Shown: positions 9,001 to 54,000 of the stretch, in pieces | How the letters are laid out: each line of letters opens with the position of its first letter | How positions within the stretch are numbered: position 1 is the stretch's first letter | Source of the DNA: Ruditapes philippinarum | Lineage: Eukaryota | Direction: 5' to 3' | DNA: 64,000 nt | Assembly (NCBI RefSeq): GCF_026571515.1 | Contig: NW_026857392.1 | Location: 310,001 to 374,000 of the forward strand | Made by a program: the position numbers

Positions 9001-12000
9001 ATCCACAGACTTCCTTTGCAAGACTCTCACTCAAAGCCGTTCAATGAAATATGAGTTTAATAGTGTTGGGCTTAGTTTAAACTCATATCAGGCTAAATAT
9101 CTTAAACAGAATTGTCCGTCTATTAATCTGGACAAAACCATGCATGATTTTAAGGGGAAAATTTATAATTTAAATATGTACCGACTGAATAGCAAGGAGT
9201 GCAGACCAATTAATTTTACAGCACAGATGTGCTGGCTGATCTTGGACTACACTGGTGACACATTGGATAGCTTTAGTTGCCGCAAGCAGGCTTAGCAAGG
9301 GGTAATCATAACAGGTCAACCTGGTTACCATGCCTGCAAAATATAGCTAAGTAGACTATAAACTAGGGTCTATCATAATCGTCTTCCATGCCTGCAAAAT
9401 ATAAGTACATGTATATAGTAACAAACTTTTTTTTCTAAGCTTTATAACAAGTTTATATTAACCTCTTCTTCCTTGCTTCTTTAAAAAGGAGTTGAAGTAT
9501 AAGTGTCAGTTCATTTCCTTACAATCAAGGCTTTAAAATATCCACATCTCAATTGTCATGAGGTACAAGTCATTTTGGGAACAGATAATGAAGGATTTGG
9601 GGAGGGCCTTGAAAGGGTTTTTAAGGATTGCATAAGTTGATAAGATAGGGAACGGGACCACATGATCCCTGACCTTTTACTGGTGTTCTCAATGGTTAAA
9701 CAGTTAAGGACATCCTGAATTTTAAGGTTTTTCTATCATATTGTCAGTATGAGTGTTTCACCTTGAATAAATGTTTGAAATATTAAGCTGAGACTATGGA
9801 AAACATGCTTTGCTTTTTTTTGTTATATTCAAAGCAAATTGAATAGAATTTTGTTAGATATTTATTAAAGACAAATGGATGTAAAGTCGGAAAGGAGTTA
9901 CATATAGTCATAACAGGAACATTAACACTTTCAATGGGGAATGAGGAAATAAATATAAGTTAATTGTATGTAATGCTTTTATGCTTGACTCCATGCCAAT
10001 TAAATGTTGTTAATTGTATAAAAATAGCTAATTAACAGTTTTGCAGTGCATAAAGTTGCATATTGAAGTAGTTTGTTCAGAGGAAGAACTGCTGGTAACC
10101 ATAAAGGTTTAAGAAACTTGCGAAGAGCCTGCATAATGTAAGGAAAAAGTGCTTTTATAATGTTATTGTGGATTTTGCATTAAAGGGGGATAATATTTAA
10201 TACAGTATTTGCAATTTTGAATTTTGAAGCTTACTGCTATGTAACTGTTTATCATTCAAACGCATTGTTAACATCTCATAGTGAATTCAAAGCTCTTTTG
10301 CAATCTGAAAATATTGATGAAATTGTCTGAAGAGTTATAAGAACAACATTTATAAGCAAATTTAAAAGTTTATATGATTCAAACACCATATATGTCAAGA
10401 GAAAGTAGTTCTTAGTTATAAGGTTAAAACAATACAAATTTCACCTGTTTTTTCCTCTTTTTTTCACAAATTTCTTGCAATATTGTTTGTCAAAGGAAGT
10501 AAAGATCATGGTTATCAATAATCTGTAAAATTTAGATACCGGTACATATTTTCGTTGAAAACCTTTTGCAGAACAAGAATAGCCAATTGATATATGGAAT
10601 GACTCATTACAGTATATTTATAATTACACACATATATGTATATATATTGTATTGAGATAGCATCATATAATTTCTACATAATTAGTAGGTAACAACATGT
10701 TCTTTATTAGCCAGACAGTTTAGAAAATGTGAGGCGGATGCAATTACTGGAACATTTTAGCACAAATATGCCATGAAAACAAAAACATATTATAATATAG
10801 CATGAAGGAATATTATATGTACGGAGCAGTGCAATAAAGGAAATATGTGCAATGAAAACTGGATTAGTAATAAAAACTGAGAAAGAAAAATTAATATGGA
10901 GGGAAAAAATGAGGAAGTGAAATAAGTTTCAGGGAAGGAAAATATTATGGTACAAGGATAATAAAAATGGCAAGAGCTTCTTTTCCAAATTCGTCCTCAA
11001 GCAAAGATAAATATAAGACTTGGGGGCGGAGCTTTAGTGAGAGGGTACGATGGATGGGCCTACCTTTCGAAGACCCGTTCAAATCTATCCGAAGGAAAAA
11101 AGTTAAAGGTAAGCAATATGTAAAACTGAATATTTTGTACTCAATATTTAAAATTTATTATCATCAATTAAAGATGCATTTTTCACAAAACTGAATAAAA
11201 CTATTGCCTTGACACACTTGTGTTGCATTGTCGGAACGAAATTCTGGAAACCAAATATAAAAGACATTGTTGTAACCTTTATTGATAATTGCATAAGTCA
11301 AATTTAAAACTTAATCTATTTTGAGTATATTGGTTACACAGACCTGATACAATTATTTGCTCTTCATTTTAAATGAAATAATTTCAAGTGATTTATATGT
11401 TATTGAGATAATTACCTCCCTTTATATCCCTTGTTATCTCTTATCTAACATTATTATCTCCCTTTATCTATGTCCCTATCTTCACAGTAATAGTATAATC
11501 TGCCAGATGTTACATAAGGAAGGTGATTTGATGAACATGGGGGTATATCTGGAAAGCTCAGATTAGTTTTGCAAATATTTGATTTCTGCTGATACTGATA
11601 ATCTATTACAACCAATGTTTATATCTCTTCAGATACTCTGTTTAATTCTTACTACTTTGTACGCAATATTAATTCTTATTACTGTTCTTTGTACCAACTA
11701 TTGCGAATATAGCATCACCTGTCTATATCCTTACCACTGGAAAATCTAATTTCATTTGTTTTGAGTTTTCTGATTTTCAGGTATTCTTCTCTTATTTGTA
11801 CAGCATCAGTAATATTAAAGATAAGACAGAGATAAGTAATAGATGCTTTTGACTTATCATTAGTAACTGACTGGTACCTATTTTAGTAAATATAATTATA
11901 CTGGATTGCATCTGTTAATAGTTATGTCCTTTTATAATGAAAGTAAAATAATACGTTTTGTCACACACCTGTGTCGTTTTTGCGATTCCGTAAAAACGGT

Positions 12001-51000: not shown

Positions 51001-54000
51001 TGATAGAGGAAGCAACAGTATATGTGTGTACTTTTAAAACTCCCTTTTTTCAGGTGATAATCATAACTTAAAGCTATAAAATTACATTTTAATAAGAATC
51101 ATCTTGCCCTGTTTTGAATTTAAAATTGGTTTTTTTTATAAAATGTAAAATTAGATAAAGTTAACTATGTATAGAAACCTCTCAGACAACGTTGATCAGT
51201 GCAGATAGGTCTTCCATTGCAGTGATGACGAACCAACTAGTTCATTTGGTCAAGATAATAGGTTATCTTCAAAGAATTGCAAAAAAAATTGAAATGAAAA
51301 AAAGAATGCTCTATCACTTCTTTTATTATCATTAAGGAAATGTTAAATATTTAGAGCATTTTAAAACTGTATGAAGATGAAAGCTTAGTTCTTGAAAATA
51401 GTCTGTAGAGTTCAATTTAAAACTAACCATAATTACTGGGAATGGCTTTTGCTAAAACAGTTGCATACCCTTGATACTGTATGTCCAGTTGGTGAAATAC
51501 CAGCGTCACTGAGTTAATTTAAAAATTTGTAACCGTTTCACTTTGAAGCTTTTACAATGTGATCATCTGAGTCAGTTTGTAAACATATTTGTAATCGATT
51601 GTTTGGTAAACTTGACCAGATTTCAACTTGACATATTAGTGAATTGTTTATCTTTCTCGAGTATCGGAACATGGCAACAAAATGAAAGTTTGATCGAAAA
51701 ACGAAGAACGCTATCAGTACTTATTGGAGACCTACTTTGGCCTAAAATTTTAAGCAGTCATGTAAATTGGGAAAAAGTTACAATTTTATCTCATAGTGCT
51801 GACCTTTTGGCTGTTCTTTGCTTACAAACTTGAAGATAAAATAATCATAAACTATCATAATTTCTTAAAATGACTAAGGTAATGTTAGTCATATGTTGAT
51901 AAATAGTATTAAATTCAATCAAATACACTGATTATAGTGAGATACCAGGCCAGAAAGAAATATTTTGAATAATTATTTGCATTATAAAGGGAGGTAATTC
52001 AAATTAAAAAAAAAATGGAATTTAATTGAAATAGTTTGGCTGCAAATTAAAGCACTCATTGAATTTGCTATTGTAAAATGTTTCCTATCTATAAAGTAGT
52101 GTCAATTTTTGTCTTGTGTTAAGAACTTTATTGACTAATTGTGACAATTAACGTGGAACGTGTCTAATTGTTTGTGTGGTATGTATGATATGAGTGTATT
52201 TGAATGTAAACAAGTGATTCCTATATACCTTAAACAGTTGTAAAGACAATACTTTAATTGATAAATGATGTACACATCTTCACAATTTGACACCAGATAA
52301 TGAAATTTTAATTGACATATCAGTATTTGATATCAGGGTGTGTCGCATACATATATCATATCATAACCAAAGTACATCAACTTAAATCTGTATAAATATG
52401 TTTACTTTAATGGTAATATACGCTACCTGCGTTTGAAAATTGTTCGGGAAGGTTAAACCCGATTTAGCAAATAAATATTATTATATACTGTATTTAAACT
52501 GTATATACCACAGTTTTAAGTTACCATTCAATAGATATATAAAAAATTATAATCTCTGTAAAGTTTATCGAAGGTTTATTTGGATGGATTTCAAGTTTTT
52601 ATCCTGCATTAATTAAAAAGACACTTCATTTGTTTTCATGGTCATTAAATAATGTGTTTCTAGCATCTATATATATATACGAATGATGAATGTAATTTTC
52701 ACAGCAAATGATGATGTGTTTTATTGCAAAATAAACCACGAATAACAAGACTATGAAACTTAAAATATCTTTCTTGTTGCAACATTTGCACATTCCATTA
52801 CATAATGATTAAACCTAGGAAAACTCTTGAACAAATATATAATACATAGAAAGAAATGATGCAAGATTAGACCAAAATAGATTAAAAAAACAATTATCTA
52901 CTAAAGTCTCTTTTAAGAGCCAATAAAATAATGAGTAATATAATTGTTTCTATGTGATAAGCATCATGTACTTTTAACGAGGAAGCTGATCTCAGTCATT
53001 TGAAACTTACGTATATTGGTTTCCCTTATGAAAATCCATGTTAATCATATATCTTAAATAATGCTATGTGTCATTAGTTGAAGAAAGAAGAAAGGGATAG
53101 ATTGTTTTTGATAAAATAAAATAAGATTTGAATAACAATTCTTTCAAAGAAACAGGCTTGTAATATTGGTTTCTTAACATTTAGATTGGTTCCCCTTAGT
53201 GAGCGCTATTGTACAATTAATATACCGGTACCTCTTAATATTGCAGGTATTTTTTTGATATTTTTACATGTGTTTAACTAATGAGACCATGTATTTATGT
53301 ATATTAAAAGAATATAGGTAACTCATAATTGTTGCAATGTGACTCATTATAATGATTTATTTCCTTGTATAATTTCAGAAATTGAAGCAATAGAGGCCTG
53401 TAGATGGCTTCGTGAGACTGGATTCCCGCAGTATGCTCAACTTTATGAGGGTAAGTCACTTGATATCATTGTTATTTGTAAAGCAATTTAGCATCCATGC
53501 CACTAGACCTTGGCCAACCAGTGCATCCCTCCAGTCAAACAGTTTTTGTCAGCCATTGCCACTTGTCTGAAATCCTACTAAAAATCATTGGCAGTTTGCA
53601 CGTCAAGTCACACAATAAATTTTATGCTTTCTGTGTTACTGAATGGCAGTTTTACCTTTGACATTATTTTTTCTGTAATTAAAGTTTAATGCATTTAACT
53701 ATAAATAGCTTATTAAAGTTTGTTTGTAACAGCTACTGGTCCAATGTAGGTCAATTTTATAGATTAAATTGGTGCAATTTAAGCCATAAGCAAAACATTG
53801 CTGTATTCATTTTGTATTTAACATAATTTAAGCATTTCTGTAAGACCTCCCTTATGAAGTACCTTATATACTTACTGTGCCTTAAATGGGTGACAGTGAC
53901 AAATAGCGTGTTTTGAAATCTGATACATGGGTAAAGTCTTTAATGAATACTGAACATCTAAAGTATAATTATTACATATCGTTTAAATAATTACAGAAGG

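What the first reader, a model, noticed from the sequence alone, without database searches (positions are those of the whole stretch)
10967..53450. Array of phase-matched alternative first exons giving a DLC1/STARD13-type RhoGAP interchangeable N-termini
Seen: at least three strong (10967-11108, 21630-21729, 49457-49538) and two weak (33810-33855, 48044-48143) ATG-initiated exons each have length 3n+1 and end in G before a GT donor, so each rebuilds the Glu codon when joined to the SAM exon at 53379. Established: vertebrate DLC1 and STARD13 use alternative promoters and first exons ahead of the SAM exon. Inference: this locus has a multi-promoter cassette spread over 40 kb that swaps N-terminal peptides onto one RhoGAP, and ORF-based annotation would miss most of it.
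[Added by the scan's program, not by the reader: the finding's places include an assembly gap (unread letters, written N; its length is only estimated) at 27279 to 27431. Whether the letters on both sides are continuous or in frame is not known: test that first.]
Basis: partly seen in the sequence, partly recalled or inferred. Interest (0 to 1): 0.7.

Follow-up and report, generated by a model that had tools for sequence, protein, structure and literature searches.

The report
Alternative first exons of mollusc DLC RhoGAP
This window holds the 5' end of a bivalve DLC1/STARD13-type RhoGAP gene in which at least two, probably three, alternative start exons can each be spliced in frame onto the first SAM-domain exon, an arrangement already known for this gene family.

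Summary
They are not equally credible.

- **Exon A (10967-11108): real.** It carries the WxRSFSERVR motif and basic tail of a first coding exon annotated directly before the SAM domain in abalone, octopus and chiton DLC isoforms. A profile of those finds only this spot in the window (E 0.002).
- **Exon B (21630-21729): probably real.** One unnamed contig from a related species matches 25 of 33 residues, with the Met and donor kept. Similarity collapses outside the exon.
- **Exon C (49457-49538): unverified.** It has only internal support: a good donor, the right phase and a basic tail like A's. Its 3' part could instead be the shared mini-exon seen in other molluscs.
- **The two weak candidates: chance level.** 40 such frames exist.

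The acceptor exon 53379-53450 is DLC SAM exon 1; SAM exon 2 is 62213-62294. The assembly gap lies in intron and touches no exon. No transcript data could be consulted, so no junction is shown. The kind is known: alternative promoters in DLC1, DLC2 and DLC3, and multi-isoform mollusc gene models.

The parts
10967..11108 (+). Exon A: conserved 'RSFSE-type' alternative first coding exon (47 codons plus G), donor AAG|GTAAGC, Kozak ataaaaATGG
   Evidence: Coordinates are. A profile of 6 mollusc N-termini hits only the segment holding it among 4916 six-frame segments (E 0.002, next best 2.2). Its alignment score is 54 against a null maximum of 39 (0 of 131). GC is 0.437, in the top 2.0% of same-length windows.
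21630..21729 (+). Exon B: lineage-restricted alternative first coding exon (33 codons plus G), donor TAG|GTAAGT, Kozak gcaattATGG
   Evidence: P0194 (unnamed Logan contig) matches 25 of 33 residues across the whole exon, with the Met kept. The donor read-through matches 3 of 3, the upstream flank 0 of 8 and the downstream flank 3 of 13. GC is 0.470, in the top 1.4%. It has no similarity to 38 orthologue N-termini.
49457..49538 (+). Exon C: candidate first coding exon (27 codons plus G; 38 codons if the in-frame ATG at 49424 is used), donor AAG|GTGAGA. Unverified.
   Evidence: Its tail RKKKISK has 5 K/R in the last 7 residues, as does exon A's, against 0.3% of 1738 pseudo-exons. CpG o/e over -400..+100 is at the 95th percentile. 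GC is unremarkable and there is no similarity to orthologue N-termini.
49495..49538 (+). Alternative reading of C's 3' part: a 44-nt internal mini-exon after a possible acceptor ...CTCTGTGTGAG|G. It would correspond to the shared pre-SAM mini-exon of other molluscs.
   Evidence: Inferred from the sequence and from the shared pre-SAM segments in Haliotis, Patella, oyster, Potamilus, Mytilus and Octopus isoforms. Not tested.
33810..33855 (+). Weak candidate D: chance-level
   Evidence: Donor is GAG|GTATTT. It is one of 40 frames of this loose type. No similarity to orthologues (null fraction 0.81).
48044..48143 (+). Weak candidate E: chance-level
   Evidence: Donor is ACG|GTACCA and the Kozak context is weak (gttttcATGT). 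No similarity to orthologues (null fraction 0.58).
53379..53450 (+). SAM exon 1: common phase-1 acceptor exon (TTTCAG|AA ATT GAA...), donor GAGG|GTAAGT
   Evidence: Best PDB matches are 2gyt at E 6.2e-9, 2dky at 8.9e-9 and 2h80 at 8.5e-8. It matches P0001 at 23 of 24 residues.
62213..62294 (+). SAM exon 2 (TTTTCAG|AT GGA CAG ... TTC AG|GTAAAC)
   Evidence: tblastn of P0001 gives 81% identity over 31 aa. Boundaries were read.
27279..27431 (.). Assembly gap (153 N) inside the putative intron between B and the other candidates
   Evidence: The right flank is CT/CA-rich low-complexity sequence. The gap was not filled or looked up.

Best explanation
The window is the 5' part of a bivalve orthologue of the DLC (ARHGAP7 / STARD13) RhoGAP gene, on the + strand. 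Two exons encode the start of the SAM domain, at 53379-53450 and 62213-62294. The RhoGAP and START exons lie beyond the 3' end of the window.

The roughly 42 kb upstream of SAM exon 1 holds mutually exclusive first coding exons. Each carries its own ATG and ends with G before a strong donor. Splicing any one of them to the phase-1 acceptor at 53379 rebuilds the Glu that precedes IEAxEAC in the named orthologues with an IEAxEAC-type motif. The protein thus gets interchangeable short N-terminal peptides in front of an unchanged SAM-RhoGAP-START body.

- **Exon A** is an old member of the set. It is an RSFSE-type exon shared with gastropods, cephalopods and a chiton, and probably with arthropods, hemichordates and vertebrate STARD13.
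- **Exon B** is a younger, lineage-restricted exon kept under coding constraint.
- **Exon C** is a plausible third.

**Shown:** the exon anatomy, the phase match, the homology of A, the conservation of B and the SAM identity.

**Inferred:** that each exon has its own promoter, that each is joined to 53379, and that the peptides differ in function. One example of a possible function is a basophilic-kinase-type RSFS site in A.
For: - **SAM exons.**
- **Closest relative.** P0001 (unnamed Logan transcript-like contig, 1077 aa) carries Pfam RhoGAP and START. Its best named relatives are bivalves: Potamilus 63%, then Solemya, Pinctada and Ostrea.
- **Orthologue N-termini.** Named mollusc isoforms show at least five kinds of pre-SAM N-terminus per species. 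All meet the SAM exon at E|IEA.
- **Exon A.**
  - The profile hit is E 0.002 and is the only one below 2 among 4916 segments.
  - 0 of 131 length-matched pseudo-exons reach its score.
  - The alignment shows WGRSFSERVR against WVRSFSERVR in Haliotis and WCRSFSERV in Octopus.
  - The mollusc profile also hits Ptychodera at 9e-5 and STARD13 isoform N-termini of lizards at 0.002-0.003.
- **Exon B.** 25 of 33 residues are identical inside the exon, against 3 of 21 in the flanks outside the GKS donor read-through (Fisher 1.5e-5). It is also a GC spike.
- **Three strong donors.** P is 1.2e-3. Under a joint quality filter the count is 4 on the + strand and 0 on the - strand.
- **Repeats.** No candidate lies in a repeat within the window.
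- **Literature.** Alternative promoters and first exons ahead of the SAM domain are described in DLC1, DLC2 and DLC3 (passages of PMC2839985 and of PMC5118400).
Against: - No transcript, start-site or junction evidence of any kind was available.
- P0194 reads through the donor, so that contig is unspliced. It shows conservation, not splicing, and its locus is unknown.
- Exon A found nothing in a word-indexed search of proteins of 84-2000 aa.
- A profile built only from non-mollusc RSFSE-type N-termini does not pick exon A in the window (rank 5, E 2.7). The link beyond molluscs is therefore only transitive.
- B, C, D and E show no similarity to 38 orthologue N-termini (null fractions 0.58, 0.12, 0.81 and 0.58).
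- C's GC content is ordinary. Its basic-tail argument was chosen after looking.
- The only close full-length relative, P0001, uses a different N-terminus that has no significant match in the window (19% of shuffles score as high).
- None of the three exons has an obvious TATA-like motif within 120 nt. A and B sit at average CpG o/e.
- Exons A and B lie on the far side of an assembly gap from the SAM exons.
Confidence: 0.75

Rival explanations
1. The locus is organised as in other molluscs. Exon A splices straight to the SAM exon. The 3' part of 'exon C' (about 49495-49538) is a shared internal mini-exon that supplies the basic pre-SAM segment to a long isoform and to other first exons. The long isoform's exons lie upstream of the window. 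On this reading C's ATG is incidental or only occasionally used.
For: - In Haliotis, Patella, oysters, Potamilus, Mytilus and Octopus the long isoform and several short ones share a 9-13 residue segment directly before E|IEA.
- C ends in a comparable basic segment, and a pyrimidine-rich ...CTCTGTGTGAG|G lies inside it.
- Long isoforms of 1528-1811 aa are widespread in molluscs.
- GC skew is positive in 30 of 32 2-kb windows, including all 5 upstream of exon A. That fits transcription entering from upstream (the link between skew and transcription is my inference).
Against: - No sequence similarity between C and any orthologue's mini-exon could be shown.
- The acceptor would be phase 2, so B (phase 1) could not use it.
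- The conserved long-isoform N-terminal regions have no match in the window (best E 0.34). The same regions match each other between molluscs at 1e-22 to 8e-7. The existence of a long isoform in this species is therefore not shown.
Confidence: 0.25
2. Only exon A is a genuine DLC first coding exon. B is a conserved exon of something else, such as a nested gene or an unannotated small ORF in the intron. C is a chance frame.
For: - B and C resemble no annotated DLC N-terminus.
- The locus of P0194 is unknown and the contig is unspliced.
- With A set aside, the excess of phase-1 frames at strong donors is only P = 0.016.
Against: - B has the right strand and the right phase, a consensus donor and a strong Kozak context.
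- It lies between exon A and the SAM exon of the same gene.
- Its conservation is bounded by the Met and the donor, as expected of a first coding exon.
- No other gene, Pfam domain at gathering score, Rfam family or tRNA was found in the window.
Confidence: 0.15
3. The whole pattern is chance. AT-rich sequence throws up ATG-open frames before GT dinucleotides, and none of them is used.
For: Loose criteria give 40 such phase-1 frames. The two weak candidates are of this kind.
Against: Exon A's homology to annotated first coding exons of four mollusc genera and B's exon-bounded conservation are not explained by chance.
Confidence: 0.02

Closest known systems
Vertebrate DLC1 (ARHGAP7) alternative promoters and first exons
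   Same: Short alternative first coding exons replace one another directly upstream of the SAM domain. In mouse one first exon gives 47 aa where another gives 13 aa, from promoters far apart (passages of PMC2839985). Five human isoforms arise from alternative promoters, and the same is stated for DLC2 and DLC3 (passages of PMC5118400).
   Different: Here the candidates lie within about 42 kb, against hundreds of kb in mammals. No promoter or transcript evidence exists for this locus. Only STARD13-type vertebrate isoforms were among the fetched hits, so DLC1 N-termini were not compared.
RefSeq and GenBank isoform models of mollusc DLC orthologues (Haliotis X1-X8, Octopus sinensis X1-X4, Liolophura X1/X2, Patella X1/X2, Potamilus, oysters, Mytilus)
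   Same: There are several alternative pre-SAM N-termini per gene, all meeting the SAM exon at E|IEA. The RSFSE-type N-terminus matches exon A (Haliotis rufescens X4, H. rubra X2, H. cracherodii X2, Octopus sinensis X3, O. bimaculoides X1/X3, Liolophura X2).
   Different: Those species also have a shared mini-exon, an 'LCY-type' first exon and a long isoform. None of these could be shown in the window. Exons B and C have no counterpart among them.
Vertebrate STARD13 (DLC2) isoform with the N-terminus ...RRSFSEQLRD...RERRLAE, plus hemichordate, scorpion and mosquito isoforms
   Same: They share an RS[FL]SE core, a basic stretch, and [LV]-x-E at the junction with the SAM exon. The mollusc profile hits them at E 9e-5 to 0.1 in a set of pre-SAM peptides (alignment).
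   Different: Identity to exon A is only 9/33 to 13/42. A profile of these non-mollusc sequences does not recover exon A from the window. Common descent beyond molluscs is therefore likely but not shown.
Drosophila crossveinless-c (Cv-c / RhoGAP88C)
   Same: It has the same SAM-GAP-START family architecture, with more than one isoform including 'long isoforms' (passages of PMC5854602).
   Different: I did not examine the fly gene structure. [quoted passage not shown] That tempers any claim that the N-terminal peptides are essential.

Membership tests
DLC family RhoGAP (DLC1/ARHGAP7, STARD13, STARD8, Cv-c) | N-terminal DLC-type SAM domain | tested here: met
   Exon 53379-53450 matches the solved DLC1 and STARD13 SAM domains (E 6.2e-9, 8.9e-9, 8.5e-8). 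The second SAM exon is at 62213-62294.
DLC family RhoGAP (DLC1/ARHGAP7, STARD13, STARD8, Cv-c) | RhoGAP domain followed by a START domain | not testable with these tools
   Both would lie beyond the window's 3' end. The closest relative P0001 carries PF00620 and PF01852, but that is another species' sequence.
Gene with alternative first coding exons (multi-promoter 5' end) | Two or more ATG-bearing exons upstream of one common acceptor, all in the acceptor's phase | tested here: met
   A, B and C are phase 1 and end in G, and the acceptor at 53379 is phase 1. The excess over chance is P 1.2e-3.
Gene with alternative first coding exons (multi-promoter 5' end) | Each exon is conserved as coding sequence in relatives | tested here: inconclusive
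   A: met. B: met in one unnamed contig. D and E: no support.
Gene with alternative first coding exons (multi-promoter 5' end) | Each exon has its own transcription start and is spliced to the common exon | not testable with these tools
   No RNA-seq, CAGE or cDNA data for this species is reachable. There is no TATA-like motif within 120 nt of A, B or C. CpG o/e is average at A and B and high at C.
RSFSE-type pre-SAM first coding exon of DLC genes (a class named here, not a published name) | Core motif [W/x]-x-R-S-[FL]-S-[EA]-x-[VIL], followed by a basic stretch ending [LV]-x-E at the SAM junction | tested here: met
   Exon A has WGRSFSERVR ... RRKKVK plus the junction Glu codon.
RSFSE-type pre-SAM first coding exon of DLC genes (a class named here, not a published name) | Statistically supported similarity to members | tested here: met
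   The mollusc profile gives E 0.002 in the window. The non-mollusc profile gives E 2.7, which is not met. Membership therefore rests on the mollusc members.

The most novel reading that the evidence does not exclude
The RSFSE-type exon (exon A) is a bilaterian-wide, more than 500-million-year-old alternative first coding exon of DLC genes. It would be retained from molluscs and arthropods to hemichordates and vertebrate STARD13 because its RSFS site and basic tail regulate the adjoining autoinhibitory SAM domain. Around it, each lineage keeps inventing private first exons, such as B and C here, that must copy the phase and, in this species, the basic tail.
Probability: 0.35. Interest if true: 0.45.

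Novelty: new member of a known kind. Interest (0 to 1): 0.3.

Why it matters
The result gives usable 5'-end annotation for a DLC-type tumour-suppressor orthologue in a bivalve lineage. For this gene the protein collection searched held no same-species protein: the best hit matched 23 of 24 residues and came from another species.

It separates one anciently conserved N-terminal exon from younger, lineage-restricted ones. It also flags a short conserved RSFSE motif just ahead of the SAM domain that may deserve a functional test.

The principle is not new. Alternative promoters that swap N-termini are already described for DLC1, DLC2 and DLC3.

Tried and rejected
- Exon A as a query against longer proteins found no candidate.
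I then sent the unaltered stop-to-stop frame around it.

**Matches that turned out to be chance**
- The N-terminus of P0001 has its best match at 46483-46536. That site has no in-frame ATG, its junction base is A, and 19% of shuffled queries score as high. Rejected as chance.
- An 'LCY-type' first exon (Haliotis, Patella, Saccostrea, Potamilus, Octopus) has its best match at 50114-50149. That site has no ATG, an early stop and no donor. tblastn E is 0.03 over 25 queries and the profile E is 0.5. Rejected.
- P0193, the top hit for exon B, is an unnamed 884-aa tandem-repeat translation. Its score sums 8 repeats, so it was set aside as spurious.

**Searches for other parts of the gene**
- Long-isoform N-terminal regions of 14 mollusc proteins have no match in the window.
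- The non-mollusc RSFSE profile against the window was not significant.

**Promoter and background checks**
- CpG-island reasoning for promoters failed. The strongest CpG peak, 5501-6500, is a transposon-like element with 61-nt inverted ends.
- Pfam on 8 of the 13 frames of at least 95 aa gave nothing at gathering score.
- Rfam and tRNA scans found nothing.

**Left out or unreachable**
- The spliced (joined) model was not built for any search. Each exon was searched on its own.
- The closed collections (metagenome and viral contigs) and paper supplements were not consulted.
- No eukaryotic genome collection was on hand, so the orthologous loci of other molluscs stayed unchecked.

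
Full report
**What is in the sequence**

The window is 64 kb at 31% G+C, with one run of 153 N at 27279-27431.

Each starts with ATG, is open, is 3n+1 bases long and ends in G followed by GT (read directly).

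The common acceptor is ...TTTCAG|AAATTGAAG at 53379. The exon 53379-53450 translates to IEAIEACRWLRETGFPQYAQLYE after the split codon.

This peptide matches the solved SAM domains of DLC1 (2gyt E 6.2e-9; 2dky 8.9e-9) and STARD13 (2h80 8.5e-8).

A second SAM exon lies at 62213-62294. The rest of the gene is beyond the window.

**The assembly gap, tested first**

- The gap lies in putative intron, between exon B (ends 21729) and candidate D (starts 33810). No candidate exon touches it, so reading frame across it is not an issue.
- Its right flank is CT/CA-rich low-complexity sequence, a plausible cause of the gap.
- I did not fill it or look it up.
- Its true length cannot be tested here, nor whether it hides an exon, nor whether the join is right.
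- Two things speak for a correct join. A DLC-specific exon (A) lies 5' of the gap, and the DLC SAM exons lie 3' of it on the same strand and in the expected order. The composition skews are also alike on both sides.

**Is the pattern more than chance?**

Under loose criteria it is not. On the + strand of 1..53378 there are 40 ATG-open, phase-1 frames of at least 46 nt that end in G before any GT. The other phases give 37 and 41. The two 'weak' candidates, with donors GTATTT and GTACCA, belong to this background.

Under strict criteria it is.
- Frames ending G|GTRAG in phase 1 number exactly three, the three 'strong' ones. The other phases give 1 and 1; the minus strand gives 0, 1 and 1.
- Only 9 G|GTRAG sites exist on that strand.
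- A random GT carries an ATG-open frame of at least 100 nt in a given phase 2.5% of the time. Three of nine therefore has P = 1.2e-3. With A left out, two of eight has P = 1.6e-2.
- A joint filter (G|GTRAG, at least 82 nt, purine at -3) passes 4 frames on the + strand and 0 on the - strand. Three of the four are phase 1.

**Relatives**

I searched the model exon by exon. The joined (spliced) sequence was not built for any search.

- Exon A against longer proteins gave nothing.
- The reading frame around SAM exon 1 found P0001, an unnamed Logan protein of 1077 aa with RhoGAP and START domains. It is identical at 23 of 24 residues in SAM exon 1 and 81% identical in SAM exon 2.
- Its best named relatives are bivalves: Potamilus 63%, Solemya 58%, Pinctada 57%, Ostrea 56%.
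- The window is therefore from a bivalve. For this gene the collection searched held no same-species protein.

**Mollusc DLC genes do have arrays of alternative N-termini**

Cluster look-ups returned named isoforms:
- Haliotis rufescens X1, X3 and X4
- H. rubra X2, X3, X4, X6 and X8
- H. asinina X3, X4 and X5
- Octopus sinensis X1 to X4
- O. bimaculoides X1 to X3
- Liolophura X1 and X2
- Patella X1 and X2
- six Potamilus models
- oysters and Mytilus

Their pre-SAM parts fall into several kinds:
- a long extension (proteins of 1528-1811 aa)
- an RSFSE-type N-terminus
- an 'LCY-type' N-terminus
- several private short ones

All meet the SAM exon at E|IEA. In several species the long form and some short forms share a 9-13 residue segment just before that junction. 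That pattern indicates a shared mini-exon.

**Exon A**

Its peptide is MARASFPNSSSSKDKYKTWGRSFSERVRWMGLPFEDPFKSIRRKKVK. It carries the motif and basic tail of the RSFSE-type N-terminus of Haliotis (...WVRSFSERVRGFR...REKKLAE), Octopus (...WCRSFSERV...QKLAE) and Liolophura (...WTRSFSARVRGFR...RRRRLKE).

- A profile of six such mollusc peptides was searched against all 4916 stop-to-stop segments of the six-frame translation. It hits only the segment holding exon A (E 0.002; next best 2.2).
- Exon A's best local score against 38 orthologue N-termini is 54. None of 131 length-matched pseudo-exon peptides from the window exceeds 39.
- Its G+C of 0.437 is in the top 2.0% of same-length windows, like SAM exon 1 at 0.458 (2.9%).

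I regard exon A as an orthologous, real first coding exon.

The same mollusc profile also scores other groups:
- the hemichordate Ptychodera (9e-5)
- STARD13 isoform N-termini of lizards (0.002-0.003), frogs (0.018-0.019) and rodents and a whale (about 0.09-0.4)
- a scorpion (0.003)
- a mosquito (0.09)

All of these end ...R[KR]L[AT]E at the SAM junction. Against this, a profile built only from those non-mollusc peptides does not recover exon A from the window (rank 5, E 2.7). An origin before the molluscs is likely but only transitively supported.

**Exon B**

Its peptide is MDVFDNREKTKLKLTQRRSSCPCITGSNQRFSL. It resembles none of the 38 orthologue N-termini (null fraction 0.58).

A full scan of 1.84 billion representative proteins gave two hits.
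- P0193 is an 884-aa tandem-repeat translation whose score sums eight repeats. I set it aside.
- P0194 is a 57-aa frame on a 4203-nt unnamed Logan contig, in a cluster of one.

In register, P0194 compares with the window as follows:

| Segment | Identical residues |
|---|---|
| Exon B, from the Met | 25 of 33 |
| Three codons that read through the donor (GKS) | 3 of 3 |
| Upstream of the Met | 0 of 8 |
| Past the donor | 3 of 13 |

Exon against the flanks outside the GKS read-through gives Fisher P = 1.5e-5.

Conservation bounded by the start codon and the donor is what a constrained first coding exon looks like. B is also the sharpest G+C spike of the candidates (0.470, top 1.4%).

Three caveats apply. 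The contig is unspliced. Its locus is unknown. Frame-breaking indels in the flanks could exaggerate the contrast.

**Exon C**

Its peptide is MDIHQALLALCVRNPKKNNGRKKKISK, or 38 residues from the in-frame ATG at 49424. It has a good donor (AAG|GTGAGA) and a good start context.

- Its upstream CpG o/e is at the 95th percentile.
- Its tail is as basic as exon A's, with 5 K/R in the last 7 residues. Only 0.3% of 1738 pseudo-exon peptides reach that.
- Its G+C is ordinary.
- It has no similarity to orthologue N-termini (null fraction 0.12).
- No outside search remained for it.
- Its 3' 44 nt follow a possible acceptor and could be the counterpart of the shared mini-exon of other molluscs. This was not tested.

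**What I did not find**

- The conserved long-isoform N-terminal regions match one another between molluscs (1e-22 to 8e-7), but they have no match in the window (best E 0.34). If this species has a long isoform, its exons lie upstream of the window.
- The LCY-type exon has no significant match.
- P0001's own N-terminus has no significant match.
- The window holds no Rfam family, no tRNA and no Pfam domain at gathering score.

**Mechanism and comparison**

The anatomy fits the family's known way of working. Alternative promoters drive mutually exclusive first coding exons. These splice in one phase onto the SAM exon and give proteins that differ only in a short N-terminal peptide.

- In mouse Dlc1 one first exon supplies 47 aa in place of 13 aa upstream of the SAM domain, from promoters far apart (passages of PMC2839985).
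- Five human DLC1 isoforms arise from alternative promoters, and the same is stated for DLC2 and DLC3 (passages of PMC5118400).
[quoted passage not shown] A peptide placed just ahead of the SAM domain could therefore plausibly tune regulation. That last step is my inference.

**Verdict**

It is well supported for A, reasonably supported for B, open for C and unsupported for the two weak exons. This is a new member of a known kind, with a modest bonus in the deep conservation of the RSFSE-type exon.

Noticed in passing
window 5686-6282: A transposon-like element of about 600 bp with 61-nt inverted ends (84% complementary). It is CpG-rich (o/e about 1.6, 29 CpG per 500 nt) and is the strongest 'CpG island' in the window, so it is not a promoter signal.
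   Followed up: partly
window 14524-15516 and 22902-23695: Two tandem arrays. One has a 92-nt unit in about 9 copies (93% matches). The other has a 35-nt unit in about 17.6 copies. The second coincides with one of only two 2-kb windows where GC skew turns negative.
   Followed up: no
window 33246-33264 (and 33137-33264): One more strong donor, AGG|GTGAGC at 33264, closes a 19-nt phase-1 ATG frame (MLKVLK plus G). It would also fit the SAM exon but has a weak start context. The 128-nt frame at the same donor is phase 2.
   Followed up: no
window 1-64000: G exceeds C on the + strand in 30 of 32 2-kb windows, including all five upstream of exon A. T exceeds A in most of them. This would fit transcription of the whole window from a start upstream of it, though that link is my inference.
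   Followed up: no
window 50114-50149: The frame LVYIFKSLTVIY resembles the conserved LCY..KSL..LY core of another mollusc DLC first exon. It has no ATG, an early stop and no donor, and it is not significant (tblastn E 0.03 over 25 queries; profile E 0.5). It is either a decayed relic or chance.
   Followed up: yes
named proteins P0097, P0064, P0113, P0095, P0112, P0105, P0028, P0049, P0009: An RS[FL]SE...R[KR]L[AT]E N-terminus directly before the SAM domain recurs in STARD13 isoforms of lizards, frogs and rodents, and in a hemichordate, a scorpion and a mosquito. This suggests a very old alternative first coding exon. I ran no paper search on this motif, so I cannot say whether it has been described.
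   Followed up: partly
protein P0193 (hit): An unnamed 884-aa protein made of about eight 60-residue tandem repeats shares LTQRR..CP with exon B. Its score is summed over the repeats and is most likely a spurious match to a translated satellite.
   Followed up: no
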